A DNA stretch of 64,000 nt from an uncultured Planctomycetaceae bacterium (GCA_964388415.1 CAYMAO010000001.1:65072-129071); one strand, 5' to 3'; counted from the first letter of the stretch, positions 22,173 to 42,244 are shown. Made by a program: numbers and translations. The notes: generated by a model from the sequence alone, not told the origin.

Positions 22173-22880
22173 ATGGGACGCGTACTGTTGACGGCGCTTG
22201 CATTGGCAGGCTTATGCCGTGACGCCAGCGCCGGCATTATGGTGGATTCAATCAATCCCAGTGCCTCACCGAAAGAAAATATCAATTATGACTCTTCCTG
22301 GATTGGTATCGGCTGGTACTACACACCCGGCCAGGACTATGAGTTGACCCGTATCGAGAGCTTGTTCAATCCGATTCCTCACGCATCATCTCCGCCGCAG
22401 AAGCCAATCGCAATCAAGTTGTTTGATGATCGCCCCGTAGAAGGCGGAGTGTTGTTGGCGGAGTCTGCATTTACGCTGAATGTTCGTAATGGCGGCTGGC
22501 AAGGCACCGACTTTCTTCCGTTTGAACTTACCGCCGGCCAGCGTTACTTCTTGGCTTTTGAAGGAATCGCACTTGTAGGAATAAACCTCTCAACTTGGGA
22601 GTTTGTGGGTGGATTGCCAACGCTTTCGGGTGGCGCGACGGAGAGTTTGGGGGCCTATTACAGAGACCTTAACTACGCCACGGAGGTCACCGACCAATTT
22701 CAAGTTGCAAGTCCGACTGGAAACGTGAGTGGCACGTCCCCGATTCTCAGATTTTTTGGAAACCTTCCTGATCCACCTCCTCCTCCCTCCGTCCCCGAAC
22801 CCGGCACGTTGACTTTGGCGGGCCTTGGCATTGTCGGCTTGCTCGGGGCGCGGTGGCGGAAGCGGCGGGCGGGGAATTGA
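22173..22880 (+). CDS. PEP-CTERM sorting-domain secreted protein
   Basis: Signal peptide MGRVLLTALALAGLC. C-terminal VPEPGTLTLAGLGIVGLLGARWRKRR is a PEP-CTERM anchor. GGAGGAGG RBS. GC content lower than neighbours. Confidence 0.8.
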   Translation: MGRVLLTALALAGLCRDASAGIMVDSINPSASPKENINYDSSWIGIGWYYTPGQDYELTRIESLFNPIPHASSPPQKPIAIKLFDDRPVEGGVLLAESAFTLNVRNGGWQGTDFLPFELTAGQRYFLAFEGIALVGINLSTWEFVGGLPTLSGGATESLGAYYRDLNYATEVTDQFQVASPTGNVSGTSPILRFFGNLPDPPPPPSVPEPGTLTLAGLGIVGLLGARWRKRRAGN

Positions 22881-22980
22881 CGGGAACAAAAATCATGGGG
22901 GCGCATCCGGGGACCGGTGGCGGTGTGCGAGTTTCGTGAGTGATCAGAAGCGTTCTGCTTATGCATTCCGGGCGGAAAAC

Positions 22981-23083
22981 GGGTAGTGGGTCAGTTTAAT
23001 AATGTAGGACACTTGCTCCGCAAGTGTGATTGGCACTTGCGGAGCAAGTGTCCTACATTGAAAGGCAAACTGACCCACTACCC
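22981..23083. repeat. ~103-bp nested inverted repeat: 17-bp outer arms plus 26-bp inner arms, each inner arm containing its own palindrome CACTTGC-N3-GCAAGTG
   Basis: GGGTAGTGGGTCAGTTT (22981-22997) pairs with AAACTGACCCACTACCC (23067-23083). AATGTAGGACACTTGCTCCGCAAGTG (23001-23026) pairs with 23034-23059. Central loop is 7 nt. Confidence 0.7.
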
Positions 23084-23418
23084 GGAAACGAGGGCAATCT
23101 TTCCCACTCCAGCCTGTTCCGTCGCTTGTTCAGACGACCAATCTGCGGTTGCGCCTCAAATCTACGGCCAAGCCAGGACTCGGTTCCGTTGCCCGGCGTG
23201 GTCTCGCCGCGTCAGCCGCATGGCCGACCTGTGCCGCCTGATCTCAGAGATCTTCGACGACGCCTCGCAGCGCGAAGCTGCGAAGGAGGGGCTGTCGGCG
23301 GACTTTCATCTGGACTCAGGGAATTGTGAAGGCTATCATTCGCCGCGCCGGAATATGCCGGTAAGCGATGCAGAGCTTGAGTTGTCGCGCATGAGCCCCA
23401 CTTCTAGGTTGAGATCTG

Positions 23419-24351
23419 ATGCAGCCGAATTTCTTCATCGTGGGGGCGCCGAAATGCGGGACGACCGCCATTTACTCCTATCTCCAGAGAAATCCCGCCG
23501 TTTTCGTGCCGAGGGCCGTCAAAGAGCCGCATCATTTCAGTCCGGAATTCTGGAGTGTCGATTCGATTATTTCCTCCCAAGCCTACGAGCGGCTGTTCGA
23601 GAGGGCGACGGCGCGGCATCGGGCCGTGGGCGAAGCCTCGACCGGCTATATTCTGTCCGACGTCGCGCTGGAGCGGATCCGCTCGTACAATGTGTCCGCG
23701 AAAATCATTCTGATGCTCCGCAACCCGGTCGAGATGGCCGAGTCGTTGTTCGAAGAGATGAAGTATCATTGGATGGAGCCGCTGAATACATTTGAAGCCG
23801 CGTGGGCCGCCCAGGAACGACGACTCTTGTCCGGTCCGCCGAAGGTCGCCACGGAAACGGATGGCCGCCTGCAATACAGCCGCTGTTGCAGCGTCGGTTC
23901 CTTGCACCAGAAGGCTCTGGGCGTCTTCCCGGCAGAGCAAGTCCACGTCATCTTGTTCGATGATTTCAAGGCCGGCCCTCGAGATGTGTACCTCCAATTA
24001 TTGCGTTTTCTGGAGGTTCCCGACGATGGCCGCGTGGACTTTCCGTCGGTCAATGCGCGTCGAGTCCACCGGTATCCGCAGCTCATGCGACTGATTATGA
24101 AACCTCCCGAACCGTTCTATTCACTCAAGAAGCGAATTCGGAACGCACTGGGGCTGCGGGACGCAGGGTGGGGATGGAAGCTCATTTCCCGATTCTCAAA
24201 AACGACCACCAAGCAACCATTGCGTCCCGAATTCGAGGCGGAGTTGCGACGACATTTCGCCCCCGAGGTGGAACGCCTGGAAGAACTGCTGGGACGTTCG
24301 CTCGCCGCCTGGAAGACAGCGGCTCCCGCAGCGCACCGCACCGCCGCCTGA
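23419..24351 (+). CDS. sulfotransferase family protein
   Basis: PAPS 5'-phosphosulfate-binding loop GAPKCGTT. 3'-phosphate-binding region LMLRNPVEMAES. Confidence 0.8.
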   Translation: MQPNFFIVGAPKCGTTAIYSYLQRNPAVFVPRAVKEPHHFSPEFWSVDSIISSQAYERLFERATARHRAVGEASTGYILSDVALERIRSYNVSAKIILMLRNPVEMAESLFEEMKYHWMEPLNTFEAAWAAQERRLLSGPPKVATETDGRLQYSRCCSVGSLHQKALGVFPAEQVHVILFDDFKAGPRDVYLQLLRFLEVPDDGRVDFPSVNARRVHRYPQLMRLIMKPPEPFYSLKKRIRNALGLRDAGWGWKLISRFSKTTTKQPLRPEFEAELRRHFAPEVERLEELLGRSLAAWKTAAPAAHRTAA

Positions 24352-24480
24352 GCAGCGCACCCGTCACGGAGACGGACGTGGTTTCCGTCTTGACCGATCT
24401 GCGGATCGTCATTAGATTTCCGGCACATTTCGCCGGTTCCAGGCGGAAACCGCGGATGATTTGCTGCTTGAGGCCACTGA

Positions 24481-25854
24481 ATGTCGTTGCTCGCCACGGC
24501 TCGCGTCGTCTCCGAACCGGCTCCGGCTGCGGGTCGTCCGCGAAACCGTTGGACTGCGTCGGCGTTCGGCCTGACGCTGCTGTGGAGCGTCGGTTGGACG
24601 GTCTGCGGCGCGATCGGCTCCAAGGGGGGCGCGCTTTTGAGTCAAATGGTGCTGGCGCGCCTGTTGAAGCCGGAAGCCTTCGGCGTGTTCTGCGCCGCGC
24701 AAGGCGCCATCACGATGATCAGCACCATGTTCGGTACTGCGATCGGCCTGGCCGTGCTGCAGCGAGTGGCGATGCGCCGCGATGCGGCCTGGCGCACGAT
24801 CGGGTCCGCTTTGGCGACGACCGCCGCGCTTGGCTTCGGCCTCAGCCTGCTGTTGATGGTGTTGATCGTCGGATTGGCCGACCAACTGCCGCGCGGACTG
24901 CAATCGCCGTGGACGGGAATCCTCTGGTCTTCGTTGCTGATCGGCAGCCTGATCGCGCTGGTCCAGGCGAATGCGCTGCAGGGATTGCAGGAATTTTCCT
25001 CACTCGCCCGGTTGCAGTTGCTCGCGGCGGCAGTCGGGTTGCCCATTCAAGTGTTTTGCGCCTGGGGCTGGGGATTTTCGGGCGCCGTGCTGGGAATCAC
25101 GATCGCGACGGCTTTGCAAGTCGCGCTCCTTGGGGTCGCCATTCGGTCTGCGGCGAAGCCGTTGTCCGCAGTGGGCGATGCGGACAAACCGATGGACGCG
25201 CTGCCTTCCTCGCTGCTTTCTTTCAGCGTGCTCCCCTTGCTGTTCACGAGCGTGCTGTTTGCGGCGGTGGAGTGGTGGTGTCCGCTGCTGCTGGTCACGG
25301 ATCGGCAGAATTTCCAGTCCTATGCCGTCTGGTGCGTCGTGCGCGACTGGCTGCTGATGGCCGGATTCGTGCCCAACATGTTGTCGCAGAGCGTCCTGCC
25401 GATGCTGACCGAACGTTGCGCCCTGGGCGACGTCCGCGGTGCCGTACACGTTCTCGGAATTCAACTGGCGGCGGGCCTTTTGCTCTGTGGCGTCTTGGCG
25501 GCCGGACTGTGGCTGGCGGCCCCGTGGATCGCCGGCGCTTACGGCTCGGAATTCGCTTCCGCGGCATTGCCGTTTCGCGTGGGGTCGTTGACGATTCTGT
25601 GCATCGCCGTGTCGAAAAGTTTCGAGACCTTTCTCGTGGCGCGCGGCCGCCTGTGGTGGAACTTCGCATTGAACGTCTGGTTTGCCGCGTGGTACCTGGG
25701 CGCAACCTGGCAGTGCGCAAGCTGGGGCCCGGTGGGAATCGCTGCGGGCCGCCTCACTGCCTTTGGTCTTCATGCCGTGCTCGCGGGCGGCCTGACCGCG
25801 ATCGAATTTCGCCGGCTGCGTGCGCAGGCCGGGGTTACATCCCTTTCTTCGTAG
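24481..25854 (+). CDS. polysaccharide/oligosaccharide flippase (Wzx, MOP superfamily)
   Basis: ~12-14 TM helices. Typical Wzx-like length and hydrophobicity pattern. Sits in a glycan cluster. Confidence 0.65.
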   Translation: MSLLATARVVSEPAPAAGRPRNRWTASAFGLTLLWSVGWTVCGAIGSKGGALLSQMVLARLLKPEAFGVFCAAQGAITMISTMFGTAIGLAVLQRVAMRRDAAWRTIGSALATTAALGFGLSLLLMVLIVGLADQLPRGLQSPWTGILWSSLLIGSLIALVQANALQGLQEFSSLARLQLLAAAVGLPIQVFCAWGWGFSGAVLGITIATALQVALLGVAIRSAAKPLSAVGDADKPMDALPSSLLSFSVLPLLFTSVLFAAVEWWCPLLLVTDRQNFQSYAVWCVVRDWLLMAGFVPNMLSQSVLPMLTERCALGDVRGAVHVLGIQLAAGLLLCGVLAAGLWLAAPWIAGAYGSEFASAALPFRVGSLTILCIAVSKSFETFLVARGRLWWNFALNVWFAAWYLGATWQCASWGPVGIAAGRLTAFGLHAVLAGGLTAIEFRRLRAQAGVTSLSS

Positions 25855-25866
25855 AGGATTGCAGCA

Positions 25867-26535
25867 ATGGCCAAGACCAGCCGGGAAGAACGGAAACGCA
25901 TGGCGATCGAGTATTGCCGGGGGAAGCGCGTGCTGCATCTCGGCTGCACCGACTGGCCGTTCACCGCGGACAAAATTCGCGATCACGAATTGCTGCATGC
26001 GCAGCTCGCCGAGTGCGCGAAAGACATCATCGGCGTCGACATCTGCGACGAAGGATTAGAGCTGCTGCGGCGCTGCAATCCGAACTGGAAGCTCGTTTCC
26101 GCGGACGCGTGCGAATATCACTCCGACTTTGAAGCCGACATCGTGATCGCCTCCGAGCTGATCGAACACCTGGAAAATCCGGGCCAGATGCTGCGGTGCA
26201 TCGCGTCGTATGCGAAGCCGGAAACGGAACTGCTGATCACGACGAACAACGCGCAATCGCTGAAGAGCGCGCTCAGGGCCGTGGTCGGGAAGGAAGAATG
26301 CCATCCCGATCATACGCTGCTGTTCACCACGAAGACGATGACCCAACTGCTGAAGCGGACTGGGTGGGATGTCGTCGACATTCAGTATTACCGTGTGGCC
26401 GCCGAGCGTCCGTTGATGGCGGTCCTGTCCGGCTGTCTGCGCCTGCTGGAACTGGTCGGGTCGCCCCAGATGCGCGAAGGTCTGGTCGTCCTGGCGCGTC
26501 CCCAGGCGGCACAAGCGCAGCGACTTTCCGCCTGA
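25867..26535 (+). CDS. class I SAM-dependent methyltransferase
   Basis: Motif I VLHLGCTDW followed by a DI-GVD acidic loop. 222 aa. Confidence 0.7.
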   Translation: MAKTSREERKRMAIEYCRGKRVLHLGCTDWPFTADKIRDHELLHAQLAECAKDIIGVDICDEGLELLRRCNPNWKLVSADACEYHSDFEADIVIASELIEHLENPGQMLRCIASYAKPETELLITTNNAQSLKSALRAVVGKEECHPDHTLLFTTKTMTQLLKRTGWDVVDIQYYRVAAERPLMAVLSGCLRLLELVGSPQMREGLVVLARPQAAQAQRLSA

Positions 26536-26593
26536 GGCCTGCCCGTTTTCACTCTGTGCTCTTCGATTCGCCGGCCGCCCAGACGCCAGGTTT

Positions 26594-28039
26594 ATGACGC
26601 ACACTTTGCCACTGCCGCTGACGCGTTCCCTGACGGGAAGGCCGGTTGCGCGCGGTTGGACGACTCCGTTCGTGCTGTATGCCCTGACGTTTCTCGCGGT
26701 CAATTTGCACCTGCTGCGCAATGCCTCGGGAATGTATGTCGCCTTTCCCCTGGCGTTGTATGTCGTGACGTTTCTGTTCCAGATCCGCCGCGACGCCGGC
26801 CTGGCCCGGACCTCGCAGGGCGTCCATCCCAGTCTTGCGCTCGTGACTCCCCTGGCGTGGATCTTTCTGTATGGCACCGCTTACATGACGGCAGTGTCTT
26901 TCTGTTACCTCACCTCGCAAGAAGTGTTGAACGGTGCGATGCGCGTCTGGTTCGCGCCGCCGTTGTTGATTCTCGCCAAGGATGCCATCCGCAGCGAACA
27001 GGACGTCACCCGCATGCTCACGGTCATCGTGATGTTCATCGCGGTCGGCTGTCTGACGGTGCCGCTGCAGGTCGTGACAGGCCCGATCCCCTGGTTCGTC
27101 GAATCGTCGTCTCGCGGGGGCATGGATCGTTTCGGTTCCCTGTTTGGCAACCTGACGGCCATCGGCTGCGTCGGCGGACTGGGGCTGGTCGTGTCGCTGA
27201 TCTCGTCCATGTCCTATTTTTTGCGATTCGCCTGCTGCGTCATCATCGGCGGCAGCATGATGTTCTCGCTGCAAAAGGCCGGCGTGATCAACCTGGTCGT
27301 CGCACCGGCGGTCTTCCTCCTGTTCGGCGGCATCAGTCTTCAAACGCGTCTGAGCCGCGCCATCAGCGTGATGATTCCCTGCATTGCCGGCATTATCTAC
27401 ATGTCGTACGTCGACGATCAGTTCTCGGATTATTCAGGATACGTCGCGCGGAAACTGGGGTTGGGCTTTGGCGCGACCGGCGGAGTCGTCGACGATTACG
27501 GCATCAGTGAAAATCTTCAAGAGCGCCTGGTCGAAACCGTCATGATGCTCTTTGACTTCTACGGCTGGCTGGGAATCTTCTGCGGCGTCGGCGTGATGGG
27601 CCTTGGGGGAACCGCGGGCTTGCCGGATTATGAGATGGCCCATAATACCTATGGAGACCTGCTGTTCAGCGGAGGCGTCTTCTATCTCCTTGCGTTCCTT
27701 GCCTTGCAGGCAGCCGTGCTCTTATCGCTGTTCCACTTAAAGCGCCTGGCGACCATTCATCGCGACCAGGGGATGCATACCAACGTGTGCACGCTGATCT
27801 GCCTGACGCTCGTGTATTTCATCAATCTCCCCGCAGGCAGCGGACAACTGGTGCAGCCCAATTTGTGTTCCCTGTTTTATGTCACGGTCGGGGTGATCAT
27901 GGGGCACTATCACCGCCGGGCCGCCGAATTGGGGCAACGCGCCCTGATTCCGCAGGCCCGGATGTCGAGACGCTCTTTTCCAACCGCAGCAATCGGCCCG
28001 TCTCTTCAGAATCGGCAAATACAGCGCCGCGCTGCGTGA
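26594..28039 (+). CDS. O-antigen ligase/polymerase-like (Wzy-type) polytopic membrane protein
   Basis: ~10-12 TM helices with a large extracytoplasmic loop. Sits in a glycan cluster context. Assignment is by architecture only. Confidence 0.5.
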   Translation: MTHTLPLPLTRSLTGRPVARGWTTPFVLYALTFLAVNLHLLRNASGMYVAFPLALYVVTFLFQIRRDAGLARTSQGVHPSLALVTPLAWIFLYGTAYMTAVSFCYLTSQEVLNGAMRVWFAPPLLILAKDAIRSEQDVTRMLTVIVMFIAVGCLTVPLQVVTGPIPWFVESSSRGGMDRFGSLFGNLTAIGCVGGLGLVVSLISSMSYFLRFACCVIIGGSMMFSLQKAGVINLVVAPAVFLLFGGISLQTRLSRAISVMIPCIAGIIYMSYVDDQFSDYSGYVARKLGLGFGATGGVVDDYGISENLQERLVETVMMLFDFYGWLGIFCGVGVMGLGGTAGLPDYEMAHNTYGDLLFSGGVFYLLAFLALQAAVLLSLFHLKRLATIHRDQGMHTNVCTLICLTLVYFINLPAGSGQLVQPNLCSLFYVTVGVIMGHYHRRAAELGQRALIPQARMSRRSFPTAAIGPSLQNRQIQRRAA

Positions 28040-28094
28040 AGGACGCACCGGTTTCCACGACCCGTTTTTTTCGGAAGCAGAAAAGCAGGACACC

Positions 28095-29114
28095 ATGACC
28101 CGACATTCGCCTCTGTTCGCATCCGTGCAAATTCCCACGTGGCGCCGCCGTGAACGGCTAGCGACGCTGATTGATTGCCTCGCCAATCAAACGGCGCCGC
28201 TCAGTTCGTATGAAATCGTCGTCTGCGACAGCGGCAGCGGCGACGGCACCCGGGAAATGATGCAGGAACGGATGCAAACCCTCCCCAACCTGCGGTTTCT
28301 GGACATCACGACCAACACGCTCGCGGCCAAGCGGAACGCGCTGTTTTACGGTTCCGATGCGCCGGTTGTGATCCTGCTGGACGACGATCTCACCGTGAAT
28401 CCCGAATTCGTCGCCGCGCATGTCGCCGCCCATGCGTCGTCGACGCGGACCGTTTTCTGCGGGGATGTCCGGTTTCCGCCGGAATGGACGAGTCACAGTA
28501 ATTATTATCGCTGGCGGGAATCACGGCACATCGGCGAGACGCGCCCCGAGATCAACCAGGAAGATATTTCGGCCCGACATCTCGTGGTGATGAATTTCTC
28601 GGCGAAGCGGGCCGAAGTCGCTCCTTTGGGGTTCATGTCCGAGGAGTTTCGCCGTTACGGCTGCGAAGATCACGAGTTCGGCTACCGCGTCAAGCAGGCC
28701 GGGCTGCGAGTCCAGTTGGTGAAAGAGGCCGTGTGCTGGCATTACGAAGGGACCGGGGACCGGACCTCGATCGCCGGATACGAAAAGAAAGCCTATACCA
28801 TGATGCGTTACGGCATGCCCGTACTTCAAAACCTGGCGCCGGAAGCCGCGCACGGATCCTGGACCCAACTCCTGGAACCTGCGCAAGCCGCTGATCCCTT
28901 CGCACGCAAAGTTCTCAAGCAGGGCGTTCAACTTGCGTTGCGCCCTGGGCTGTCCCGGCAGGTGCGCAAATTTCTTGAACGGGTCGACGCGACGCCCGCG
29001 GCGTACTTTCCGTGGCTCTATCAATACGTGATCAGCACCGCCATGCTGCAAGGCCGGAAGGAGCGCAGCCCCGCGGACTGGACGGAACCGAGCGAATTCC
29101 TGAAAGCGGCGTGA
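28095..29114 (+). CDS. family 2 glycosyltransferase
   Basis: GT2 N-terminal fold: VQIPTWRRRERL...YEIVVCDSGSGDGT...LLDDDL (DxD). Confidence 0.75.
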   Translation: MTRHSPLFASVQIPTWRRRERLATLIDCLANQTAPLSSYEIVVCDSGSGDGTREMMQERMQTLPNLRFLDITTNTLAAKRNALFYGSDAPVVILLDDDLTVNPEFVAAHVAAHASSTRTVFCGDVRFPPEWTSHSNYYRWRESRHIGETRPEINQEDISARHLVVMNFSAKRAEVAPLGFMSEEFRRYGCEDHEFGYRVKQAGLRVQLVKEAVCWHYEGTGDRTSIAGYEKKAYTMMRYGMPVLQNLAPEAAHGSWTQLLEPAQAADPFARKVLKQGVQLALRPGLSRQVRKFLERVDATPAAYFPWLYQYVISTAMLQGRKERSPADWTEPSEFLKAA

Positions 29115-29133: not shown

Positions 29134-30270
29134 TTACACGGTCCGGCGGACTTTCCGCCCGGCGGTGAAGCGGTCGATCACGAGATTGCCCAGGTCTTGC
29201 GCGTTGCAGTAGGCCGCGACGCCGCCGCTGGCTTTCGCCATCCGCTCCACGAAGTTCACCAGGTCGAGATAAAAGTAGTCCTCGATCAGCGCGAAGCTCG
29301 ACAGTTGAATGCCTTCTCGGGCGCACTGACGCACTTCGGCCAGCGTGGCGTTTGCCGTCTGTTCGCACGGAGGGTAGATCAAGAGCACATCGCGGCCTTC
29401 GATGTGGGCCGTCGGTTCGCCGTCGGTGATCGTCACGATCTGCTTATTCTGCGCCCCTTGCCGGCGTAAGATTCTCCGGGCGTACTGCAGCCCGGCATGA
29501 ATGTTCGTAAAATGTTGCGGCACAAAACGGGGAGGATGATCGAGACTCACCCGCAACCGGACCCGGGGATCAAACAGGCTGACCGGCTTCGGGGCCGACA
29601 ACAGCAGTTCCCGCTCGTTCATCGGCGAGGCGAATGTGTAGAACCCGACGACCTGCAAGAAGTCTCCCTGGTATTTTCCGCGGACGAGGGCCTGCATGGC
29701 CAGGGCGACTTTTTTCGCCGCACCGTATTTGCCGAAACGGCTCATGCTGCCGGACATGTCCAAAAGGACGACAGTCGCGCACGACGTCTGATACTCGGAT
29801 TCATTGATCGCGAAGTCGTCTTCGGTGACGCGGATCGGCGTCCCCTGGCCTTGACGCTGCAGCGCATTCCGTAGCGTCTCCTGCAGATTCAGATTGGCGA
29901 CCGGGTCACCGTACTCGTAGGGCTTCGTCTCATCCTGCCGGACCGTGCCCGTCCCGCGGAAGTCGGTTTCATGACGGCCCAGCGTGTCTTTCCGGCGGAC
30001 ATCGAACAGCTCTTCCAGCGCCTTGTTTTCGACGCGGCGCAACCCCTTCGGCGTGACGCGGAATTTCCCCTCGGCGTCTTTCTCGATGTAGCCCTGCTTC
30101 AAAAGCAGGTCGAGCAGTTCCGGGTTCTCTTCCTCCCACTGGTTCAGCGAGTCAAGCACATCCTCGCCGTACTGCATCAGGTATTCGCTGAGTTGGTCGA
30201 AGAGCCGATCCGCCGATTGCGGCGTGAACTCCTGCGATCCGTCCCAGCGGGAGTATTCATACGCGGGCAT
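29134..30270 (-). CDS. VWA domain protein (CoxE-like)
   Basis: MIDAS motif VVLLDMSGSMS. CoxE-like VWA C-terminal region. Start placed at ATG (MPAYEYSRWDG); the track GTG-30372 extension is Pro/Arg/Cys-rich and implausible. Confidence 0.75.
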   Translation of the reverse strand: MPAYEYSRWDGSQEFTPQSADRLFDQLSEYLMQYGEDVLDSLNQWEEENPELLDLLLKQGYIEKDAEGKFRVTPKGLRRVENKALEELFDVRRKDTLGRHETDFRGTGTVRQDETKPYEYGDPVANLNLQETLRNALQRQGQGTPIRVTEDDFAINESEYQTSCATVVLLDMSGSMSRFGKYGAAKKVALAMQALVRGKYQGDFLQVVGFYTFASPMNERELLLSAPKPVSLFDPRVRLRVSLDHPPRFVPQHFTNIHAGLQYARRILRRQGAQNKQIVTITDGEPTAHIEGRDVLLIYPPCEQTANATLAEVRQCAREGIQLSSFALIEDYFYLDLVNFVERMAKASGGVAAYCNAQDLGNLVIDRFTAGRKVRRTV

Positions 30271-30368: not shown

Positions 30369-33300
30369 TCACCGGCGAGGTACGTCCGGCGGAGGTTCCG
30401 GGAAGATGGGAGGCGGCAATCCCCCGGTGCCGGGCATGTCTCCCAGATAAATCTGCCGGCGCCCCGTCAGGCCCGGGTCAACCAGCGTGAAGGGTTTGCC
30501 GCTCAACGCTTCGACGACGGCCGTCCAATACCAGTGCTGGCGCGACAATTCCGGATGCCCGCGCGACACGGCCAGCAGTTGTTGCAGACGGTCGGCTTGC
30601 CCCCGGGATGCCTGCCGGCGCTGTACCGCGGCGGCTTCCGCGTCGACTAACACCGCGGCCGCAGTGCCGGAAAGCGTCCGGTCTCCGGCGGCATCCGGCG
30701 TGGAAAGCGATTTCCACGCGTCGTCGCTCAGTGTCCAGTCGGAAATATTCTGCGGCTTGCCCCGTCGATCCAACTGGCGGATCGCAGTTTCTCCTGCGGC
30801 GCCGAACAGCGTTCGCGTTGCCAAGGCCTCGGCTTCATTCACGGCCTGCTCACTCTGCTCCCAGGCGTCGGACACCTGGCGGTAAGCGTCCACGACCGGC
30901 CGCGGGGGATGAACATCCAGCCAATGCACGGCGAGCACATCCAGACCAACATCGTACCCCGCGATCCGTTGCTGCAAATCTTCTCGGCAGCGCTGCTCTA
31001 ATTCGGTGCGCTGCTCCGTCAGGACCGCATCCAGCGGCTGCGCGGCAATCGCCGCCCTAAGCACACTCTCCGCGGCAGACCGCAGCAGTTCATCCGGCTG
31101 CAGCCCCCCGGACAACGCAAATCGCTGCACGTCGGCAATGCGGTAGTGAACTTCCGCCGTCAATTCCACGGCGACTTCGTCCCCCGTCAGGTACAGCGAT
31201 TCCTCCGGTACGCCGCGAAAGTGGGCGTCCTCATGCGAACTCGTCCACTCCAGATCCACGCGATCCTCGGTTGTCGGTTTTGCAACGCTTTCACCGGTGC
31301 GAAATCCGACCGACACCGACTTCACCTCTGAAGGGCGCAGCCGGACCAATCGCTCCAACGGCCACGGCCACCGCCAGGACCAGCCGGCCGACAGCGTCTC
31401 GTGATATTGGCCGCCGCGCAATACGACCACGGCTTCGTCATCGCGGACCATCACGATCTGGCTTGCCAGCCAGGCGATTGCCAGGCCGCATCCGGCGAGT
31501 TGCAACGTCAGCCGCCAGCCGCGAATTCCTTTCGCGAGCAACCGCCCGGGTGACAGCCGCGCGGCCCATTGCTCGAGAAAAGCATTCCCATCGAAATGCA
31601 CCGTCTTTGTCGCCGAGGGGCGATCTTGAAACCGCAATAGTCGCAACGCGTTCAACAGCACGAGCAAAGAAGCGGCTTCATGAAACACGGCCGCCGCCAC
31701 GGGAGACAACCAGCCCGTGCTGCAAGCCAGCACTCCCGCGCCATTGACCCCGAGGGCAAACCAGTACAGGCTTTGCCCGATGTTTTCTACCAGCGCCCGC
31801 GACAGCCGGACTAGCCCCGGCAGCGGCCGCAGCGGATCGCCCAGCAGCAGGATCTCGCCCGCTTCGCCTGCCGGCACACTCCCCGAACGGCACACAGCAA
31901 GCCCGACATCCGCCGCCGCGAGCGCCGGCCCGTCATTGAGGCCGTCGCCAATCATCGCCACGCGCTGGCCGGATTTCTGCGCCGCTTCAATCCAATGGGC
32001 CTTGTCCTCAGGCAGTTGCTGCGCCGCGACGTGATCGAACAGGGCCAGTCGCAAGGCCGCCGCTTGCGCAGGCAATTCGCGATCGCCCGTCAGCATGACA
32101 AGCCGGCGAATCCCAAGCTGCTTTAATTCGCGCAGGACCGCCGCTGATTCTTCACGAAGCGTCTCCTGGATGCCCAGCACGCCGGCGAGCTGACCATCGA
32201 CGCCGATCAGCAGCGGCGTCTGTCCGGCTTGCAGCAACTGATGGATGGCCTCCATGCCTGCGGCCGGCATCGTGACGTTGCGATCAGCGAGCAGCCGCTC
32301 CGAGCCGATCACCACCTGCCGCGCCGACGATTCCGATGCAGACTCTGGACCAGGTTTCGCGAGCGTCACCTGGGCCGTGACGCCGGCCCCGAGGTGCGCC
32401 GCAAAGTCCTTCGGCCAGGCCAGGTCCAGTTGGTGGGATTGCGCCGCGGTACGCAGCAACTGGGCGATGGGATGCGCGCTCGGACGTTCCGCGCTCGCTG
32501 CCAGTTGCAGCAGGTCCGTTGTGGACAACTCGCCGACGGAGAGGATGCTTCCCAACGAGAGATCACCTTCACTGAGCGTGCCTGTCTTGTCGAACGCGAA
32601 GACGTCGATGCCTGCCAGCCGTTCCAGCGCGGCCGATCCCTTCACGACGATGCCCCGCCGCGCCAGCCAGGCGAGCGCCGCCATCACGGCACAGGGGGTC
32701 GCTAGAATCAACGGGCACGGACAGGCCACGACAAGCACGCCAAGCGCCGGCAGCCAGCCCGCCTGCCACGTGCCGGTCTGCACCCGCCAGGCCAGCAGCG
32801 TGATCGCCGCGATGGCGAGCACCGCCGGCAAGAACCACCGGGCGAACCGGTCCGCCGTCCGTTCGCATCGCATCTTGCGCGACGTCGCCTGCCGGACCAG
32901 CCGTTCCATCTCCGCAAGGGCGGTGTTCGCACCGGACTTCTCGACGCGAATCGTGAGTGCCGACGTGAGATTGACGGTCCCGGCAATCACCGCGTCGTCC
33001 GTCGTCTTTTCGACCGGCAGACTCTCGCCGGAGATCAGGCTTTCGTTGATCGACGACATTCCCGTCACAATCCGGCCATCTGCGGGAATGCGGTCTCCGG
33101 CCCGGACCAGCACCAGGTCGCCGGGCTGTAAGGCTTCCGCGGCGATCTCCCGTTCCAGTCCGTCACGAATGAGCTGCGCCGTCTCCGGCCGCTGCTCGAA
33201 TGTTCGTCGAATGGCCCGCTTCGCTTGAGACAGCGTGAAGCCTTCGACGCTCTCCCCGATCAGCGAGATGAACACGACCAGGCCGGCCGTCTGATGTTCG

Positions 33301-33632
33301 CCAAGCGCGATCGCCGCCAGGCATGCCGTCGTCAGCGCGAGGTCGGCTCCGAACCGCCCGGCGAGCACGTTCTCGAGGCTGTGATAGAGAATCCGCGCGC
33401 CGCCCGACACTGCGGCGAACAGTGCCAGCCGATAGCCCCACGGAGCGCGCAGCCACTCCCAGCCGCCGGGAAGAGTCGCCAGCCCTAAGACCATGTCACC
33501 GGCCAGCAGCAGCCCGACGACTGCGGTCAAGGCATATAGCGAGGCAACTTCCGCCAGCGCGGCTTCGTCGGACCGCGAACCGCGCGCCGGCTCCTGAAAG
33601 AATTCACACGCCGATTCTGGAACATAATGCAT
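30369..33632 (-). CDS. P1B-type heavy-metal-translocating P-type ATPase fused to a C-terminal SPFH/band-7 (HflK/HflC-like) domain
   Basis: ATPase motifs CPC (VACPCPLILATP), DKTGTLS and MIGDGLNDGPALAAADVG. After the last ATPase TM pair comes an extra TM helix (LTLQLAGCGLAIAWLASQIVMV). It is followed by SPFH-like sequence: VVVLRGGQYHETLSAGW..., LTGDEVAVELTAEVHYRIADVQRF..., DVLAVHWLDV...RQV. Single 1087-aa uninterrupted ORF. Confidence 0.75.
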   Translation of the reverse strand: MHYVPESACEFFQEPARGSRSDEAALAEVASLYALTAVVGLLLAGDMVLGLATLPGGWEWLRAPWGYRLALFAAVSGGARILYHSLENVLAGRFGADLALTTACLAAIALGEHQTAGLVVFISLIGESVEGFTLSQAKRAIRRTFEQRPETAQLIRDGLEREIAAEALQPGDLVLVRAGDRIPADGRIVTGMSSINESLISGESLPVEKTTDDAVIAGTVNLTSALTIRVEKSGANTALAEMERLVRQATSRKMRCERTADRFARWFLPAVLAIAAITLLAWRVQTGTWQAGWLPALGVLVVACPCPLILATPCAVMAALAWLARRGIVVKGSAALERLAGIDVFAFDKTGTLSEGDLSLGSILSVGELSTTDLLQLAASAERPSAHPIAQLLRTAAQSHQLDLAWPKDFAAHLGAGVTAQVTLAKPGPESASESSARQVVIGSERLLADRNVTMPAAGMEAIHQLLQAGQTPLLIGVDGQLAGVLGIQETLREESAAVLRELKQLGIRRLVMLTGDRELPAQAAALRLALFDHVAAQQLPEDKAHWIEAAQKSGQRVAMIGDGLNDGPALAAADVGLAVCRSGSVPAGEAGEILLLGDPLRPLPGLVRLSRALVENIGQSLYWFALGVNGAGVLACSTGWLSPVAAAVFHEAASLLVLLNALRLLRFQDRPSATKTVHFDGNAFLEQWAARLSPGRLLAKGIRGWRLTLQLAGCGLAIAWLASQIVMVRDDEAVVVLRGGQYHETLSAGWSWRWPWPLERLVRLRPSEVKSVSVGFRTGESVAKPTTEDRVDLEWTSSHEDAHFRGVPEESLYLTGDEVAVELTAEVHYRIADVQRFALSGGLQPDELLRSAAESVLRAAIAAQPLDAVLTEQRTELEQRCREDLQQRIAGYDVGLDVLAVHWLDVHPPRPVVDAYRQVSDAWEQSEQAVNEAEALATRTLFGAAGETAIRQLDRRGKPQNISDWTLSDDAWKSLSTPDAAGDRTLSGTAAAVLVDAEAAAVQRRQASRGQADRLQQLLAVSRGHPELSRQHWYWTAVVEALSGKPFTLVDPGLTGRRQIYLGDMPGTGGLPPPIFPEPPPDVPRR

Positions 33633-33687: not shown

Positions 33688-33996
33688 TCATCCCGGCAGG
33701 TCGACCAGCACGTCGTCGCCCGTCACGGTGACGTCGTACTTCCTGGTCTGAATGTGGGCCGTCAGGCAGTGCCGGCCGGTGGTCACGTCGAATTGCCAGC
33801 CATGCCAGGGGCACGTGACGATGTTCTTCCGCAGCATTCCTTTCCCGAGCGGCCCGCCGGCGTGCGGGCACACGCCGTCAACAGCGTAGTACTCCCCGTC
33901 GACGTGATACAGTGCGATGATTTTCCCGTCGATCACCAGTTCTTTGCCGGTGCCGTTCGGGATGTCGGTTACGCAAGCGGCGCGGTGTTGAGTCAT
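33688..33996 (-). CDS. Rieske [2Fe-2S] domain protein
   Basis: CPHAGGPL...(17)...CPWHGWQF (CxH...CxxH). Start at ATG 33996 (MTQHRAACVTD). Confidence 0.75.
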   Translation of the reverse strand: MTQHRAACVTDIPNGTGKELVIDGKIIALYHVDGEYYAVDGVCPHAGGPLGKGMLRKNIVTCPWHGWQFDVTTGRHCLTAHIQTRKYDVTVTGDDVLVDLPG

Positions 33997-34096
33997 ACCG
34001 ATAGGATGCGGGATGAGCGGGCCGGGATCAAGGATAATCCCAAAGCCCGGCGATGGCATCGCCGGGATCCCGCCGTCGCCGACGGCGGGCTTTCCC

Positions 34097-39844: not shown

Positions 39845-41917
39845 TCACTTCATCACGCCGACGACGTGATTGAAGCGGTCGGTCCACAGTACCAACGGGC
39901 GGTCGCCTTGCCGCGTGTTCTGTACGGCGGCCTGAATCACCGGCGTTTCCAGTGCCGCGGCATCCCGTGTCACGAGCATCCAATCGCAATATCCGGCTTC
40001 ACCGGCGACCTCGGCCAGCGAATAGACCTTCACGGCGTGCAAGCCGAAGCGATCGGCAGCCCCGTGAATCACCGGTTCCAGATCGAAGTGCCGGTTCGTG
40101 ATGTGAAACGCCAGCACCCCGTTCGGCTTCAAGTGCTTCAAATAGATGCCGAAGGCTTCCTCGGTAAGCAAATGGGCGGGCACCGCGTCGCTGCTGAAGG
40201 CGTCCAGCACGAGGACGTCAAACTGCTGAGCCGCTTCTCGTTCCAGCGACAGCCTCGCATCCCCGAGGACCATCTCCACCGTCGCTTCCGAATCGCTGAG
40301 ATAGCTGAAGTGCGCCCGCGCCAAACGGATGACGTCGGGATTGATCTCATAGAACCGGAAGCGGTCGCCCGGTTGTCCGTAAGCCGCCAGCGTTCCGACC
40401 CCCAGGCCGACCATGCCGACATTCCGCGGCGCCGATGCTTGCGATTGCAGCAACAACCCGATGCCGGATTGCTCCCCGTAATACGTCGTCGGAACCTTCC
40501 GTTTCTCAGGGGCCAGGTACTGCATGCCGTGCACAATCCTGCCGTGAACCATTCTCCGCGAGGCAGTTTCCGGCGTGTCGACGTCATGATCGACGACGCG
40601 AAGCACGCCGTAAAAATTCCGGCTCGATTCCAGTTCATTCGGCCCCGCGACCGCCGTTGCGATCCCGACCAGCCGCAGTCCGGCCCATGCGGCCAGCACG
40701 ACGTAACTCCAGCCCCAGCGCGGCGTGGTGCCGTTCCAGAGTTCGTCCTTGTCGCTCAGCAAGACCCACAGCACGATGCCGCAGCCGGCAATCAGTGCCA
40801 GCGGCAATTCCAGATAGTTGGACAAGATCAGCGGCGCCACTGCACCGACCAGGAGCCCGCCCGTTGCGCCGCCGGCACTGGACGCCAGGTAAAACGTCGT
40901 CAAAAACTGCGGCTGCGGACGCAACCGAACCAGTTCCCCGTGACAGACCATGCAGCAGAAAAACAGCGACGTAAAATGAACGACGATTTGCGAGAACAGC
41001 GAGGTGTCGCTGCCTGCCTGCAAGACAAACGACAGGCAGACAATCGCCCCGGTCAACGCCGTGGCATAGGCCCTCCGCGGATACCACCAGGCCCGGTCGA
41101 AACACAAAATGAACGACGCCAGGTACAACGTCAAAGGCAACACCCACAGGAACGGAATCACGGCGACATCCAGGCACACCTGGTTCGTCGTCGCCAGCAG
41201 CATCACCGAGGCGCACGCCGACAAGCCGAACCACGCGCCGATCAGCGGCCAACTCGGCGGAACAGCGGCCTCCGCGGACGTCACGGAGGCAGTCGCCGGC
41301 CGGCGGCTGCGCAGGATGAGATCCATCGCGCACACGCCGCAAACCACGGCGAAAAGTCCGAAACCCGCCGACCACCACAACGACTGATCTTCGGACGAAA
41401 GCCACGGCTCAAACACGAAGGGATACGTCACCAACCCCAGCACCGAACCGATGTTCGACAGCGCGTACAATCGATACGGTGATGCGCCCGGCCGCGTCTG
41501 ACCGAACCAGGCCTGCAGCAATGGCCCCGTTGCGGACAGCAGGAAGTAAGGCAACCCCACGGTCGCCGTCAGCAGTCCGAGAATCCGCAGCGCCGGGTTC
41601 TCATCTCCGACCGGCTTCCAGGACGCATCCGGCGACATCGGCAACAGCAACAGCGCCGTTGCCAGCAAGGCCAGATGAACGACAGCCTGCCCCCGCGGCG
41701 TCAACCAGCGAATGCTGCCGTGAGCATAGGCATAGCCGGCGAAGAGTACCACCTGAAAGAACAACATGCAGGTGGTCCAGACGCCCGGAGTGCCGCCGAA
41801 CCACGGCAAGATCGACTTGCTGATCAGCGGCTGCACCTGAAAGATGAGAAACGCGCTGGTGAGAATGGTGAGGGCGTAGACCGCCGTCGTCTGCCGGGGA
41901 GATCGAGAGTCTGTCAT
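39845..41917 (-). CDS. fused MFS-like membrane domain / spermidine synthase-like protein
   Basis: N-terminal ~12 TM helices. C-terminal spermidine-synthase/methyltransferase fold (VGLGVGTLAAYGQPGD...VLVLDAFSSD...NGVLAFHI). Confidence 0.75.
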   Translation of the reverse strand: MTDSRSPRQTTAVYALTILTSAFLIFQVQPLISKSILPWFGGTPGVWTTCMLFFQVVLFAGYAYAHGSIRWLTPRGQAVVHLALLATALLLLPMSPDASWKPVGDENPALRILGLLTATVGLPYFLLSATGPLLQAWFGQTRPGASPYRLYALSNIGSVLGLVTYPFVFEPWLSSEDQSLWWSAGFGLFAVVCGVCAMDLILRSRRPATASVTSAEAAVPPSWPLIGAWFGLSACASVMLLATTNQVCLDVAVIPFLWVLPLTLYLASFILCFDRAWWYPRRAYATALTGAIVCLSFVLQAGSDTSLFSQIVVHFTSLFFCCMVCHGELVRLRPQPQFLTTFYLASSAGGATGGLLVGAVAPLILSNYLELPLALIAGCGIVLWVLLSDKDELWNGTTPRWGWSYVVLAAWAGLRLVGIATAVAGPNELESSRNFYGVLRVVDHDVDTPETASRRMVHGRIVHGMQYLAPEKRKVPTTYYGEQSGIGLLLQSQASAPRNVGMVGLGVGTLAAYGQPGDRFRFYEINPDVIRLARAHFSYLSDSEATVEMVLGDARLSLEREAAQQFDVLVLDAFSSDAVPAHLLTEEAFGIYLKHLKPNGVLAFHITNRHFDLEPVIHGAADRFGLHAVKVYSLAEVAGEAGYCDWMLVTRDAAALETPVIQAAVQNTRQGDRPLVLWTDRFNHVVGVMK

Positions 41918-42244
41918 GCTGCCGCATCCGTTGGTGCTGGTTCTGCCGGTTGTAGCGCCTCCGCCGGGATGTCGACGGACCGCAACATGGCAAATCTAGC
42001 ACACGCCGGCTGCAATGCCGGGCGAATTTTTCGTTCCATCACCCTGGCCGGAGTGGTTGCGCTCTGTCAGGCAGTCGTGCACCGTCTGATGAGCATCCGA
42101 GGAGTTGGCTGACCTTCGGGCCGAACACGAAAGATGTGTGTTATTGACAGCGAAAACTCAGGGGCATGCCACCCGTTTCAAAGTGTACCACTACCGGAAC
42201 TCGGGGCAATGCCGATGAGGCTCAGGACTCGCCACCCGCGGCAT

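What the first reader, a model, noticed from the sequence alone, without database searches (positions are those of the whole stretch)
30369..33632. Heavy-metal P1B-type ATPase with an extra TM helix and a C-terminal SPFH/band-7 (HflK/C-like) domain, followed by a CoxE-type VWA gene
A single uninterrupted 1087-aa ORF holds a complete CPC-type P-type ATPase core (CPC, DKTGT, GDGLND motifs). After the last canonical TM pair it continues into one additional predicted TM helix and ~330 aa with clear SPFH/stomatin-prohibitin-HflK/C character. The P-type ATPase C-terminus is normally cytoplasmic, so the extra helix would put the SPFH domain on the other side of the membrane, as in HflK/HflC. I do not recall a metal pump carrying a membrane-scaffolding SPFH domain as a characterised architecture. 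The gene immediately downstream on the same strand (29134-30270) is a CoxE-like VWA/MIDAS protein, a family that usually works with MoxR AAA+ partners, but no MoxR is present here. The pair may form a functional unit, possibly a metal-efflux microdomain with a VWA-mediated assembly or metal-loading step.
Basis: partly seen in the sequence, partly recalled or inferred. Interest (0 to 1): 0.72.

Follow-up and report, generated by a model that had tools for sequence, protein, structure and literature searches.

The report
Metal pump fused to HflK scaffold
A Planctomycete gene joins a working heavy-metal export pump to a periplasmic HflK-type membrane-scaffold protein; related genomes use the same tail on other metal exporters and usually add two free scaffold genes, which points to an undescribed kind of built-in metal-efflux platform.

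Summary
The 1087-aa ORF (30369-33632, minus strand) is real. It is identical in three independent assemblies. The same single-ORF architecture occurs in at least 120 protein clusters, and relatives of the tail are encoded in 248 species genomes; the 80 loci listed are all Planctomycetota. It has three parts. The first is a complete P1B ATPase, closest to the P1B-4 pump sCoaT, with M4 CPC and M6 HE but no SPC. The second is a fixed 39-aa linker and one extra TM helix. The third is a full HflK-like module (SPFH, CC1, CC2), whose best sequence and fold match is E. coli HflK.

The VWA part is not supported. The CoxE model is below threshold. The VWA gene adjoins the pump only in this genome, and lies roughly 50 kb from it on another contig.

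The conserved partners are a dedicated HflC-like plus HflK-like gene pair, adjacent in 47 of 83 other loci and in 3 of 3 distant subfamilies. The same tail is also fused to CDF and ArsP exporters in several phyla, with the same partner pair. A W-x3-H insert marks P1B- and CDF-fused tails only.

Best reading: an exporter built into an HflK/C-type ring. No description was found in the searchable papers.

The parts
30369..33632 (-). Whole fusion gene, 1087 aa: P1B-ATPase, linker, TM9 and HflK-like module
   Evidence: Single ORF. Three Pfam domains. Identical in 3 assemblies. Conserved end to end in 120 homologs.
31629..33632 (-). P1B-type ATPase core, residues 1-668 (MA, MB, M1-M6, A/P/N domains); no HMA domain
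   Evidence: TIGR01525 501 bits, above cut-off. Best solved relatives are sCoaT 7qbz (304 bits), ZntA 4umv and CopA. AF2 pLDDT is mostly 85-97.
33612..33632 (-). Conserved N-terminal motif MHY(I/V)PES
   Evidence: About 80% column conservation at the very N-terminus of 120 homologs, which also validates the start codon.
32715..32723 (-). M4 metal-site motif CPC (in context VVACPCPLILATPC)
   Evidence: Invariant C304, P305, C306. Aligns with SPC of sCoaT and CPC of ZntA.
32577..32591 (-). DKTGT phosphorylation motif
   Evidence: Invariant D348-T352.
31932..31949 (-). GDGLND hinge motif
31635..31685 (-). M6 with FHEAAS...NALRLL; H651 and E652 invariant (P1B-4-type HE pair)
   Evidence: Aligns with VHEGST...NALRLL of sCoaT. 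HEGxT is defined as the P1B-4 M6 motif in PMC8880997.
31524..31628 (-). Cytoplasmic linker between M6 and TM9, with invariant S694-P695 and two short helices
   Evidence: Length is 39 aa in 109 of 120 homologs. Invariant columns. AF2 helices 683-692 and 695-704; low pLDDT at 667-682.
31446..31517 (-). Ninth transmembrane helix (residues about 706-729), homologous to the single TM helix of HflK
   Evidence: The only hydrophobic segment after M6. AF2 helix 706-723. Aligns with E. coli HflK residues 81-101.
30819..31451 (-). SPFH/Band_7 domain (residues 728-938), predicted periplasmic
   Evidence: Pfam Band_7 68 bits. TIGR01933 hflK 128 bits, below its cut-off. HflK 7vhp E=2e-42 with the A1 profile.
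31233..31250 (-). EWTSSH: [E/D]-W-x3-H signature inside an insertion of the SPFH domain
   Evidence: E795, W796 and H800 are invariant in the fused family. The motif is present in 16/16 ATPase-fused and 14/15 CDF-fused tails. It is absent from 46 HflC-like and 43 HflK-like partners, from 9 free HflKs and from the ArsP-fused tail. E. coli HflK lacks the insertion.
30504..30902 (-). Coiled-coil region: CC1 (911-946), a family-specific insert, CC2 (990-1025) and C-terminal helices to 1043. These correspond to the wall and cap elements of HflK/C cages
   Evidence: AF2 helices. Aligns with HflK 275-340. Foldseek best hits of the tail are HflK chains 9cz2_XA (4e-19) and 7vhq_E (2e-17).
29134..30270 (-). 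Neighbouring VWA/MIDAS gene (378 aa). Judged NOT part of the system
   Evidence: VWA_2 passes and VWA_CoxE fails. Adjacent to the fusion only in this genome. Roughly 50 kb away on another contig and with variable neighbours. 70-89% identical across Planctomycetaceae.

Best explanation
The gene encodes a catalytically intact P1B-type divalent-metal export pump. It is P1B-4-like, with an M4 CPC plus M6 His-Glu site and no HMA domain. Its cytoplasmic C-terminus continues through a fixed-length linker and a ninth TM helix into a periplasmic, full-length HflK-type module (SPFH domain, CC1, CC2, C-terminal segment). In effect the pump replaces the cytoplasmic N-terminal tail of HflK. The tail is expected to oligomerise as HflK does, into an HflK/C-type ring or cage on the periplasmic face, so that the pump becomes a built-in subunit of an SPFH membrane microdomain, a hard-wired efflux platform. 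In most related genomes the ring would be built together with a dedicated HflC-like and a second HflK-like subunit encoded directly next to the fusion. That would dilute the bulky pumps among the K positions. In the window's lineage these partners are not adjacent. A W-x3-H insertion near the membrane-proximal SPFH domain is specific to tails fused to cation exporters. It may receive or gate the exported ion, or contact the pump. Shown here: domain composition, motif integrity, single extra TM helix, HflK homology over the full tail, conservation of the fusion, conserved partner genes, recurrence of the tail on CDF and ArsP exporters. Inferred: periplasmic orientation, ring assembly, hetero-oligomer composition, metal identity, physiological role.
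For: Architecture and motifs. The fusion is real and conserved. The ATPase is closest to sCoaT (P1B-4) and shares invariant H651/E652. The tail aligns with E. coli HflK in three stretches: TM helix plus SPFH start, SPFH/CC1, and CC2 plus C-terminus. It gives HflK as its best fold match. HflK/C forms 24 alternating subunits in the periplasm, with HflK modelled only from residue 79 onward. Partner genes: an HflC (TIGR01932, 194 bits, above cut-off) and an HflK-like protein (148 bits) lie adjacent on the same strand in 47 of 83 other fused loci. They are also adjacent in 3 of 3 distant ATPase-fused subfamilies, with 3-225-nt gaps or overlaps. The partners have a short basic N-terminus followed by one TM helix, which indicates a periplasmic SPFH domain. 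The same tail is fused to CDF exporters (13 of the top 150 representatives; at least 75 clusters from several phyla) and to an ArsP permease, again followed by HflC-like then HflK-like genes. In Ca. Tritonobacter this sits in a Fur-FeoA-FeoB locus. The W-x3-H motif tracks P1B and CDF fusion only. Precedent that P1B pumps need membrane scaffolds: PacL 'effluxosomes' (PMC13460109).
Against: No experiment and no multimer model supports ring assembly. In the window's own clade (L001, L087, L088) no HflC/HflK pair is adjacent, and none lies in the 64-kb window. So a homo-oligomer, distant partners or a different mode is possible here. 24 pumps could not obviously fit around one HflK/C-size ring, so the stoichiometry is unexplained. 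The tail scores below the curated HflK cut-off (128 against 159 bits). Charge bias around TM9 is weak, so the orientation rests on helix parity and homology. One CDF fusion (P0200) shows a possible second hydrophobic segment. Metal specificity cannot be read from a CPC/N/HE site that fits no defined subclass.
Confidence: 0.55

Rival explanations
1. Proteolytic control. The HflK-like tail docks the pump into the housekeeping FtsH-HflK/C complex, so that FtsH can degrade or spare it. The fusion would then be a quality-control or turnover tag and not a structural efflux platform.
For: The tail is HflK-like through all segments, including those that build the FtsH-enclosing cage. HflK/C is known as an FtsH modulator. 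From my own knowledge, FtsH degrades some P-type ATPases such as Salmonella MgtA.
Against: No FtsH-like ORF occurs in any of 93 loci. The module brings its own dedicated HflC-like and HflK-like genes, which suggests a specialised complex. The exporter-specific W-x3-H insert has no obvious role in proteolysis. Whether the HflK residues that contact FtsH are kept was not resolved.
Confidence: 0.2
2. The pump and the downstream VWA/MIDAS protein form a functional unit, with VWA-mediated assembly or metal loading of an efflux microdomain.
For: Same strand with a 98-nt gap in the window. The VWA protein has an intact MIDAS DxSxS motif.
Against: The adjacency is unique to this genome: 0 of 83 other fused loci, including the nearest clade. 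The two genes are roughly 50 kb apart on another contig. The VWA gene is a far more conserved gene (70-89% identity) with variable neighbours. A terminator-like hairpin and a promoter-like site lie between the genes. The VWA protein has no signal peptide or TM feature to reach a periplasmic SPFH domain; this is my reading of the sequence and was not formally tested.
Confidence: 0.04
3. Cytoplasmic stomatin-like regulator. The hydrophobic segment is a re-entrant hairpin, the SPFH domain stays in the cytoplasm, and it regulates the pump's soluble domains in cis, as stomatin regulates channels.
For: Charge bias across TM9 is weak. Stomatin-type SPFH proteins are cytoplasmic and bind transporters; for example the AQP1-stomatin structure 9zd2 appears among the fold hits.
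Against: The segment aligns residue for residue with the true TM helix of HflK and is a single 18-24-residue helix without a hairpin break. The best family and fold match is HflK, well ahead of stomatin or QmcA: 149 against 31-41 bits. The co-encoded partners have an N-in single-pass topology.
Confidence: 0.08
4. Assembly or annotation artefact: two genes falsely joined by a frameshift or chimeric contig.
For: None was found. One relative (L008) is split into pieces.
Against: The gene is identical in three independent assemblies. The fusion is a single ORF in 84 of the first 86 loci and in at least 120 protein clusters. The linker length is fixed. L008 is broken by several frameshifts inside the ATPase core itself, so it is a degraded or error-ridden copy and not a natural two-gene form.
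Confidence: 0.01

Closest known systems
P1B-4 ATPases (sCoaT, CzcP, CtpD/CtpJ, PfeT): Co/Zn/Cd/Fe exporters
   Same: Best solved relative is sCoaT 7qbz. Eight core TM helices with a GG kink in MB (G77, G78 invariant). No HMA domain. An invariant His-Glu pair in M6 at the HEGxT position.
   Different: M4 is CPC(P), not SPC. M6 is HE(A/V)AS, not HEGxT. There is an extra ninth TM helix and a 360-aa periplasmic HflK-like module. No P1B subclass definition (P1B-1 to P1B-7) fits.
E. coli HflK/HflC: 24-subunit periplasmic SPFH cage around FtsH
   Same: The tail has the HflK order of TM helix, SPFH domain, CC1, CC2 and C-terminus, and HflK is its best sequence and fold match. In most genomes an HflC gene follows directly, as in hflK-hflC operons.
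   Different: The 78-residue cytoplasmic N-tail of HflK is replaced by a whole pump. The tail has two family-specific insertions, one carrying W-x3-H. A third gene, a second free HflK-like protein, is usually present. No FtsH linkage was seen. The score is below the curated HflK cut-off.
PacL-Ctp 'effluxosomes' of Mycobacterium tuberculosis
   Same: P1B metal pumps depend on a co-encoded small membrane scaffold for stability and clustering into mobile membrane platforms (PMC13460109). The functional logic is the same as proposed here.
   Different: PacL proteins are unrelated to SPFH, act non-covalently on the cytoplasmic metal-binding domain, and are encoded upstream. Here the scaffold is an SPFH protein, covalently fused, and periplasmic.
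CDF::HflK-like and ArsP::HflK-like fusions found here (for example MDP8248239.1, Ca. Tritonobacter lacicola)
   Same: The same tail clade and the same downstream HflC-like then HflK-like pair. The CDF fusions carry the same W-x3-H motif.
   Different: The exporter superfamily differs: secondary transporters in place of an ATPase. They occur in many phyla and are annotated only as 'FtsH protease activity modulator HflK'. They are also uncharacterised.
Stomatin-transporter complexes (AQP1, GLUT1, ASICs) and SPFH-NfeD pairs (QmcA-YbbJ)
   Same: SPFH oligomers that associate with and modulate membrane transport proteins. Both appear among the fold matches (9zd2, 8z5g).
   Different: Those associations are non-covalent, on the cytoplasmic face, with a different SPFH subfamily. 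No NfeD gene is present here.

Membership tests
P1B-type (heavy-metal) P-type ATPase | DKTGT phosphorylation site, (T/S)GES A-domain motif, GDGxND hinge, (S)xHP N-domain motif | tested here: met
   DKTGT 348-352, SGES 201-204 (TGES in the family consensus), GDGLND 562-567, SAHP 385-388.
P1B-type (heavy-metal) P-type ATPase | CPx-type motif in M4 and a curated family model above its cut-off | tested here: met
   CPC 304-306 is invariant. TIGR01525 scores 501.3 bits against a cut-off of 346.25.
P1B-type (heavy-metal) P-type ATPase | Eight-helix core (MA, MB, M1-M6) with a cytoplasmic C-terminus | tested here: met
   Hydropathy and AF2 helices. The alignment covers nearly the full length of the sCoaT and ZntA structures. 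The orientation itself is taken from the family and was not measured.
P1B-4 subclass | SPC motif in M4 | tested here: not met
   The protein has CPC where sCoaT has SPC. Definition from PMC8880997 and PMC13460109.
P1B-4 subclass | HEGxT motif in M6 | tested here: inconclusive
   H651 and E652 are invariant, but the motif reads HEAAS here and HE(V/A)AS in the consensus. Gly and Thr are replaced.
P1B-4 subclass | No classical N-terminal HMA metal-binding domain | tested here: met
   No HMA hit in Pfam. Only about 25 residues precede MA.
P1B-2 subclass (ZntA-type) | CPC in M4 together with the M5 Lys and M6 Asp (DxG) pair | tested here: not met
   CPC is present, but N630 aligns with ZntA K693, and HE aligns where ZntA has ADTG.
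SPFH / Band 7 superfamily | SPFH domain above the Pfam gathering score | tested here: met
   PF01145 scores 68.3 bits against 23.6, at residues 728-938.
HflK (FtsH protease activity modulator) | Curated equivalog model TIGR01933 above its cut-off | tested here: not met
   123-128 bits against a cut-off of 159.4. The protein is HflK-like, not an equivalog.
HflK (FtsH protease activity modulator) | N-in single TM helix, then SPFH, CC1, CC2 and a C-terminal cap segment | tested here: met
   Three aligned stretches with E. coli HflK, at residues 81-142, 141-273 and 275-340. Foldseek best hits are HflK chains over about 350 columns. The periplasmic side is inferred.
HflK (FtsH protease activity modulator) | Adjacent hflC partner gene | tested here: not met
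   None in the 64-kb window. An HflC gene is adjacent in 47 of 83 other fused loci and in L089-L091.
HflK (FtsH protease activity modulator) | Assembly with HflC into a cage that binds FtsH | not testable with these tools
   No multimer prediction or experiment was available. No FtsH gene lies in any of the 93 loci.
CoxE-type VWA protein with a MoxR partner (the neighbouring gene) | Pfam VWA_CoxE above its gathering score | tested here: not met
   16.8 bits against 26.4. VWA_2 passes at 32.1 against 27. Rv0959_3rd is on record.
CoxE-type VWA protein with a MoxR partner (the neighbouring gene) | Neighbouring MoxR or other AAA+ ATPase gene | tested here: not met
   No Walker-A ORF of at least 200 aa in the window. 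No AAA+ gene next to homologs in L092 or L093.

The most novel reading that the evidence does not exclude
There is an unrecognised class of SPFH cage systems spanning several phyla, in which the client is covalently built in. It is a three-gene module: [metal exporter::HflK-like], then HflC-like, then HflK-like. The exporter can be a P1B ATPase, a CDF or an ArsP permease. The exporters would discharge metal into, or next to, the closed periplasmic chamber of an HflK/C-type cage, with the W-x3-H insert acting as the first extracytoplasmic metal acceptor. That would create a periplasmic metal-handling nanocompartment for buffering, hand-off to metalloproteins, or prevention of re-entry.
Probability: 0.25. 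Interest if true: 0.88.

Novelty: new variant of a known kind. Interest (0 to 1): 0.72.

Why it matters
What SPFH cages (HflK/C, prohibitin, stomatin, flotillin, erlin) actually do for the membrane proteins they surround is still open, despite many recent structures. A natural, conserved, covalent scaffold-client fusion fixes the identity of the client. The recurrence of the same tail on three unrelated exporter families argues that the link to metal efflux is functional and not accidental. It gives cultured organisms (Symmachiella dynata, Schlesneria paludicola) in which the role of the cage can be tested with simple read-outs: metal tolerance, pump stability, complex size. For metal homeostasis it extends the 'effluxosome' idea, that P1B pumps work inside scaffolded platforms, beyond mycobacteria and to a different scaffold. 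For annotation, hundreds of proteins are currently named after only one of their halves: 'Cu+-exporting ATPase' for the pump fusions and 'HflK' for the CDF fusions.

Tried and rejected
1. Assembly frameshift: rejected. The gene is identical in three assemblies and the fusion is conserved.
2. L008 as a natural split form: rejected. It has several frameshifts inside the ATPase core.
3. VWA partnership: rejected.
4. Search for a MoxR/AAA+ gene or a second SPFH gene in the window: none found.
5. FtsH in the neighbourhood of any module: none in 93 loci.
6. Simple positive-inside charge counts around TM9: only a weak bias (+0.2 against -1.05), not decisive.
7. AFDB Foldseek search to find named UniProt entries with this architecture: the library was unavailable.
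8. Full-length Foldseek against the PDB was dominated by the ATPase half, so the tail was folded separately.
9. Naming the distant fused subfamilies through cluster members: mostly unnamed.
10. Context of the ArsP fusion: the contig was too short. Only the first 56 residues of the next ORF were available, and they look HflC-like.
11. Finding the HflC/HflK partners elsewhere in the window organism's genome: not possible with the tools, because only DNA within 10 kb of a looked-up gene is retrievable.
12. Nine literature searches for any exporter-SPFH fusion returned nothing relevant. The library holds only open-access papers and preprints, so absence is not proof.
13. The NJ trees are rough distance trees. 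They were used only to map contexts and not to claim a single origin of the tail.


Full report
**1.

The minus-strand ORF 30369-33632 is one uninterrupted 1087-codon frame. Pfam finds E1-E2_ATPase (147-326), HAD Hydrolase (342-575) and Band_7/SPFH (728-938; 68 bits against a gathering score of 23.6). NCBIfam places residues 98-665 in the heavy-metal P1B model TIGR01525, at 501 bits against a cut-off of 346.

CPC (304-306), DKTGT (348-352), SGES, SAHP and GDGLND are all in place. After the last core helix (M6, ending near 666) there is exactly one further hydrophobic segment, about 706-729. AlphaFold (74-sequence alignment, mean pLDDT 82.5) models it as a single helix, followed by an alpha/beta SPFH domain and long helices.

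Three independent metagenome assemblies carry the identical 3264-nt gene with no mismatch. The conserved N-terminal MHY(I/V)PES motif confirms the start codon.

**2. The fusion is a conserved family**

The 120 best database clusters (44-70% identity, full coverage, 1045-1217 aa) all carry the same three Pfam domains. Conservation runs through the linker, the ninth helix and the whole tail. The M6-to-TM9 linker is 39 residues in 109 of 120 sequences.

A scan of one genome per species with a tail-specific alignment found relatives in 248 species genomes. The 80 best loci all have Planctomycetota record titles (Planctomycetaceae, Schlesneria, Planctomyces, Kuenenia-labelled MAGs). In 84 of the first 86 loci the ATPase core and the tail are in one ORF. 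Of the two exceptions, one ends at a contig edge. The other, L008, is broken by frameshifts inside the ATPase core itself, so it is a degraded or error-ridden copy and not a natural two-gene form.

An exhaustive search of 1.8 billion representatives with the tail gave 107 hits at E<=1e-30. Among the top 150 representatives, 44 are full-length and 36 are contig-truncated ATPase-tail fusions. These include distant subfamilies of about 990-1300 aa with a standard CPCAL M4 and His-rich N-termini.

**3. What the two halves are**

The pump is closest to the solved P1B-4 ATPase sCoaT (7qbz, 304 bits), then ZntA and CopA. Like P1B-4 pumps it lacks an HMA domain, has the GG kink in MB (G77, G78 invariant), and has an invariant His-Glu pair in M6 that aligns with the HEGxT motif of sCoaT. 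But M4 is CPC(P) and not SPC, and the M6 motif reads HE(A/V)AS. The subclass definitions come from PMC8880997 and PMC13460109. It also lacks the Lys/Asp pair of P1B-2. So it is an intact divalent-metal exporter of no defined subclass, and its metal cannot be named.

The tail is specifically HflK-like. NCBIfam hflK scores 128 bits (below the 159 cut-off) against 20 bits for hflC. A profile of the tail matches E. coli HflK at E=2e-42 in three stretches: the TM helix and SPFH start, SPFH plus CC1, and CC2 plus the C-terminal segment. QmcA and stomatin follow far behind, at 41 and 31 bits. A separate model of the tail has HflK chains as its best fold matches (9cz2_XA 4e-19, 7vhq_E 2e-17), followed by erlin, HflC, stomatin, prohibitin, QmcA and flotillin, all of them ring or cage formers.

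In the solved complexes, HflK and HflC form 24 alternating subunits on the periplasmic side, and HflK is modelled only from residue 79. In this protein the pump therefore takes the place of HflK's cytoplasmic N-terminal tail.

**4. Topology**

This step is inferred. P-type ATPases end in the cytoplasm, which is established knowledge of the family. One further TM helix would put the tail in the periplasm, which is where HflK's homologous region sits. The co-encoded free partners (section 5) have a short basic N-terminus followed by a single helix, which is also the N-in, SPFH-out arrangement. Simple charge counts around TM9 show only a weak bias, so I do not claim more than coherence among parity, homology and partner topology.

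**5. The VWA gene is a bystander; the real partners are HflC- and HflK-like genes**

Pfam VWA_CoxE is below threshold for the downstream gene (16.8 against 26.4 bits). It is a VWA_2/Rv0959_3rd protein with an intact MIDAS motif.

It is next to the fusion only in the window organism's own contigs. None of 83 other fused loci has it, including the closest clade (L087 and L088, 64-65% identity). On another genome's 518,856-bp contig, the VWA gene and the fusion lie roughly 50 kb apart. The VWA protein is 70-89% identical across Planctomycetaceae, far more conserved than the pump, and has different neighbours in each genome, never an AAA+ gene. A terminator-like hairpin at the pump's stop codon and a promoter-like site precede the VWA gene. 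This is weak evidence, because the site counts do not exceed those in shuffled sequence.

By contrast, 47 of the 83 other fused loci carry two free SPFH genes on the same strand directly beside the fusion: 42 downstream and 5 upstream. This is a lower bound, since several loci have short flanks. In Symmachiella dynata these two genes are an HflC (TIGR01932, 194 bits, above cut-off) and an HflK-like protein (148 bits). A rough tree puts adjacency in both major clades. The window's small clade, and a Schlesneria-like subclade that instead has a conserved unannotated 133-aa upstream ORF, lack it. Three distant ATPase-fused subfamilies all have the same order, with 3-225-nt gaps or overlaps: fusion, HflC-like, HflK-like. 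The window itself contains no other SPFH gene.

**6. The same tail sits on other exporters**

Many relatives of the tail that lack an ATPase core are not free HflKs. Thirteen of the top 150 representatives are Cation_efflux (CDF) + Band_7 proteins of 528-619 aa. One is an ArsP_1 permease + Band_7 protein of 770 aa.

The CDF fusion occurs in at least 75 clusters. The source names include Auribacterota (Ca. Tritonobacter), Eisenbacteria, Hydrogenedentota, Myxococcales and other Deltaproteobacteria, Caldilineaceae and Fibrobacteria. All are annotated simply as 'FtsH protease activity modulator HflK'.

In Ca. Tritonobacter lacicola the locus reads Fur, FeoA, FeoB, [CDF::HflK-like], HflC-like, HflK-like. 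The truncated ORF 2 nt after the ArsP fusion begins like an HflC-type partner. Most CDF fusions have exactly one hydrophobic segment after TM6, which keeps the same parity. P0200 may have a second.

**7. A signature of cation-exporter-fused tails**

Inside an insertion of the SPFH domain that E. coli HflK lacks, the fused tails carry [E/D]-W-x3-H (EWTSSH, residues 795-800, in the window). E795, W796 and H800 are invariant in the 74-sequence alignment.

The motif occurs in 16 of 16 sampled ATPase-fused tails and 14 of 15 CDF-fused tails. It is absent from the ArsP-fused tail, from 46 HflC-like and 43 HflK-like partners, and from 9 free 333-aa HflKs. The model is unconfident in this region (pLDDT about 40). 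A role as an extracytoplasmic metal acceptor or as a pump contact is my speculation.

**8. Mechanism and rivals**

The best-supported reading is an active metal exporter built into an HflK/C-type periplasmic ring. The ring is normally formed with a dedicated HflC-like and a second HflK-like subunit. That would also ease the packing problem of placing a bulky nine-helix pump at every K position. The closest functional precedent is the PacL-scaffolded effluxosome of M. tuberculosis, where P1B pumps need a co-encoded membrane scaffold for stability and clustering (PMC13460109). Here the scaffold is an SPFH protein and is covalently attached.

The main rival is that the tail delivers the pump to FtsH for controlled proteolysis. 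I cannot exclude it, but no FtsH gene is linked in 93 loci, and the module carries its own C/K pair. A cytoplasmic stomatin-like arrangement and the VWA model are much less likely. For the window's own lineage the absence of adjacent partners remains unexplained.

**9. Novelty**

Nine full-text searches found no description of an exporter-SPFH fusion. These included a 2023 review of P-type ATPases and the 2009 survey of prokaryotic SPFH proteins. The library covers only open-access papers and preprints.

Each component is a known kind, so I rate this a new variant of a known kind. Its interest lies in the conserved three-gene module and in its recurrence on three exporter families.

Noticed in passing
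L094 7001-10553 (Ca. Tritonobacter lacicola); P0200, P0231, P0186 and others; P0207 / L096 786-3267: The same HflK-like tail is fused to CDF (Cation_efflux) exporters in many phyla and to an ArsP_1 permease. Each is followed by HflC-like then HflK-like genes. The CDF module sits next to Fur-FeoA-FeoB. Databases name these proteins just 'HflK'.
   Followed up: partly
window 31233-31250 (residues 795-800): An [E/D]-W-x3-H motif lies in an SPFH-domain insertion. It is found only in tails fused to P1B or CDF cation exporters and is absent from free HflK/HflC proteins and from the ArsP fusion. It is a possible periplasmic metal-acceptor or pump-contact site.
   Followed up: partly
window 33612-33632 (residues 1-7): The N-terminal motif MHY(I/V)PES is conserved in the close family. 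Distant fused subfamilies instead start with MHRE... or with His-rich stretches. It is a possible N-terminal metal-binding or regulatory element replacing the missing HMA domain.
   Followed up: no
window 29134-30270 (-): The VWA/MIDAS protein (Rv0959_3rd + VWA_2, 378 aa) is 70-89% identical across Planctomycetaceae and almost always about 378 aa. It has no conserved neighbour and no AAA+ partner. It looks like an unusually constrained gene of unknown role, not linked to any neighbour.
   Followed up: partly
L005 9481-9882; also L006, L009-L011, L014, L015, L019, L021, L036, L043, L047, L058, L067: A conserved ORF of about 133 aa, with no Pfam or NCBIfam hit, lies directly upstream of the fusion in a Schlesneria-like subclade that lacks the adjacent HflC/HflK pair. 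It may be an alternative partner.
   Followed up: no
L090 10884-11366 and L091 12240-12731: A homologous ORF of about 160 aa (one N-terminal TM helix, no family hit) follows the HflC-like/HflK-like pair in two distant ATPase-fused modules. It may be a fourth component.
   Followed up: no
window 33688-34059 (-): A small Rieske [2Fe-2S] protein gene (123 aa) lies 55 nt upstream of the pump on the same strand. The adjacency was not seen in any other locus.
   Followed up: partly
window 22173-29114: A surface-polysaccharide-type cluster lies on the strand opposite the pump: a PEP-CTERM-domain protein, a sulfotransferase, a Polysacc_synt flippase, a methyltransferase, a 481-aa multi-TM protein with no family hit, and a GT2 glycosyltransferase.
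   Followed up: no
window 19548-21890 (+): A 780-aa protein combines a Ser/Thr protein kinase domain with an FGE-sulfatase domain (Pfam hits on record for L001).
   Followed up: no
window 24001-28000 and 40001-42000: There are strong local AT-skew excursions, -0.21/-0.17 and +0.23, against a background near 0. The cause was not examined.
   Followed up: no
L006 5777-10876: In one Schlesneria-like contig, an IS110-family transposase and a P2-type cation ATPase lie just downstream of the fusion gene on the opposite strand.
   Followed up: no
L008 7908-11242: A close relative (59% identity; Planctomycetaceae MAG STL-PLA41) has the gene in three frame-shifted pieces. It is either a pseudogene or carries assembly errors.
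   Followed up: partly
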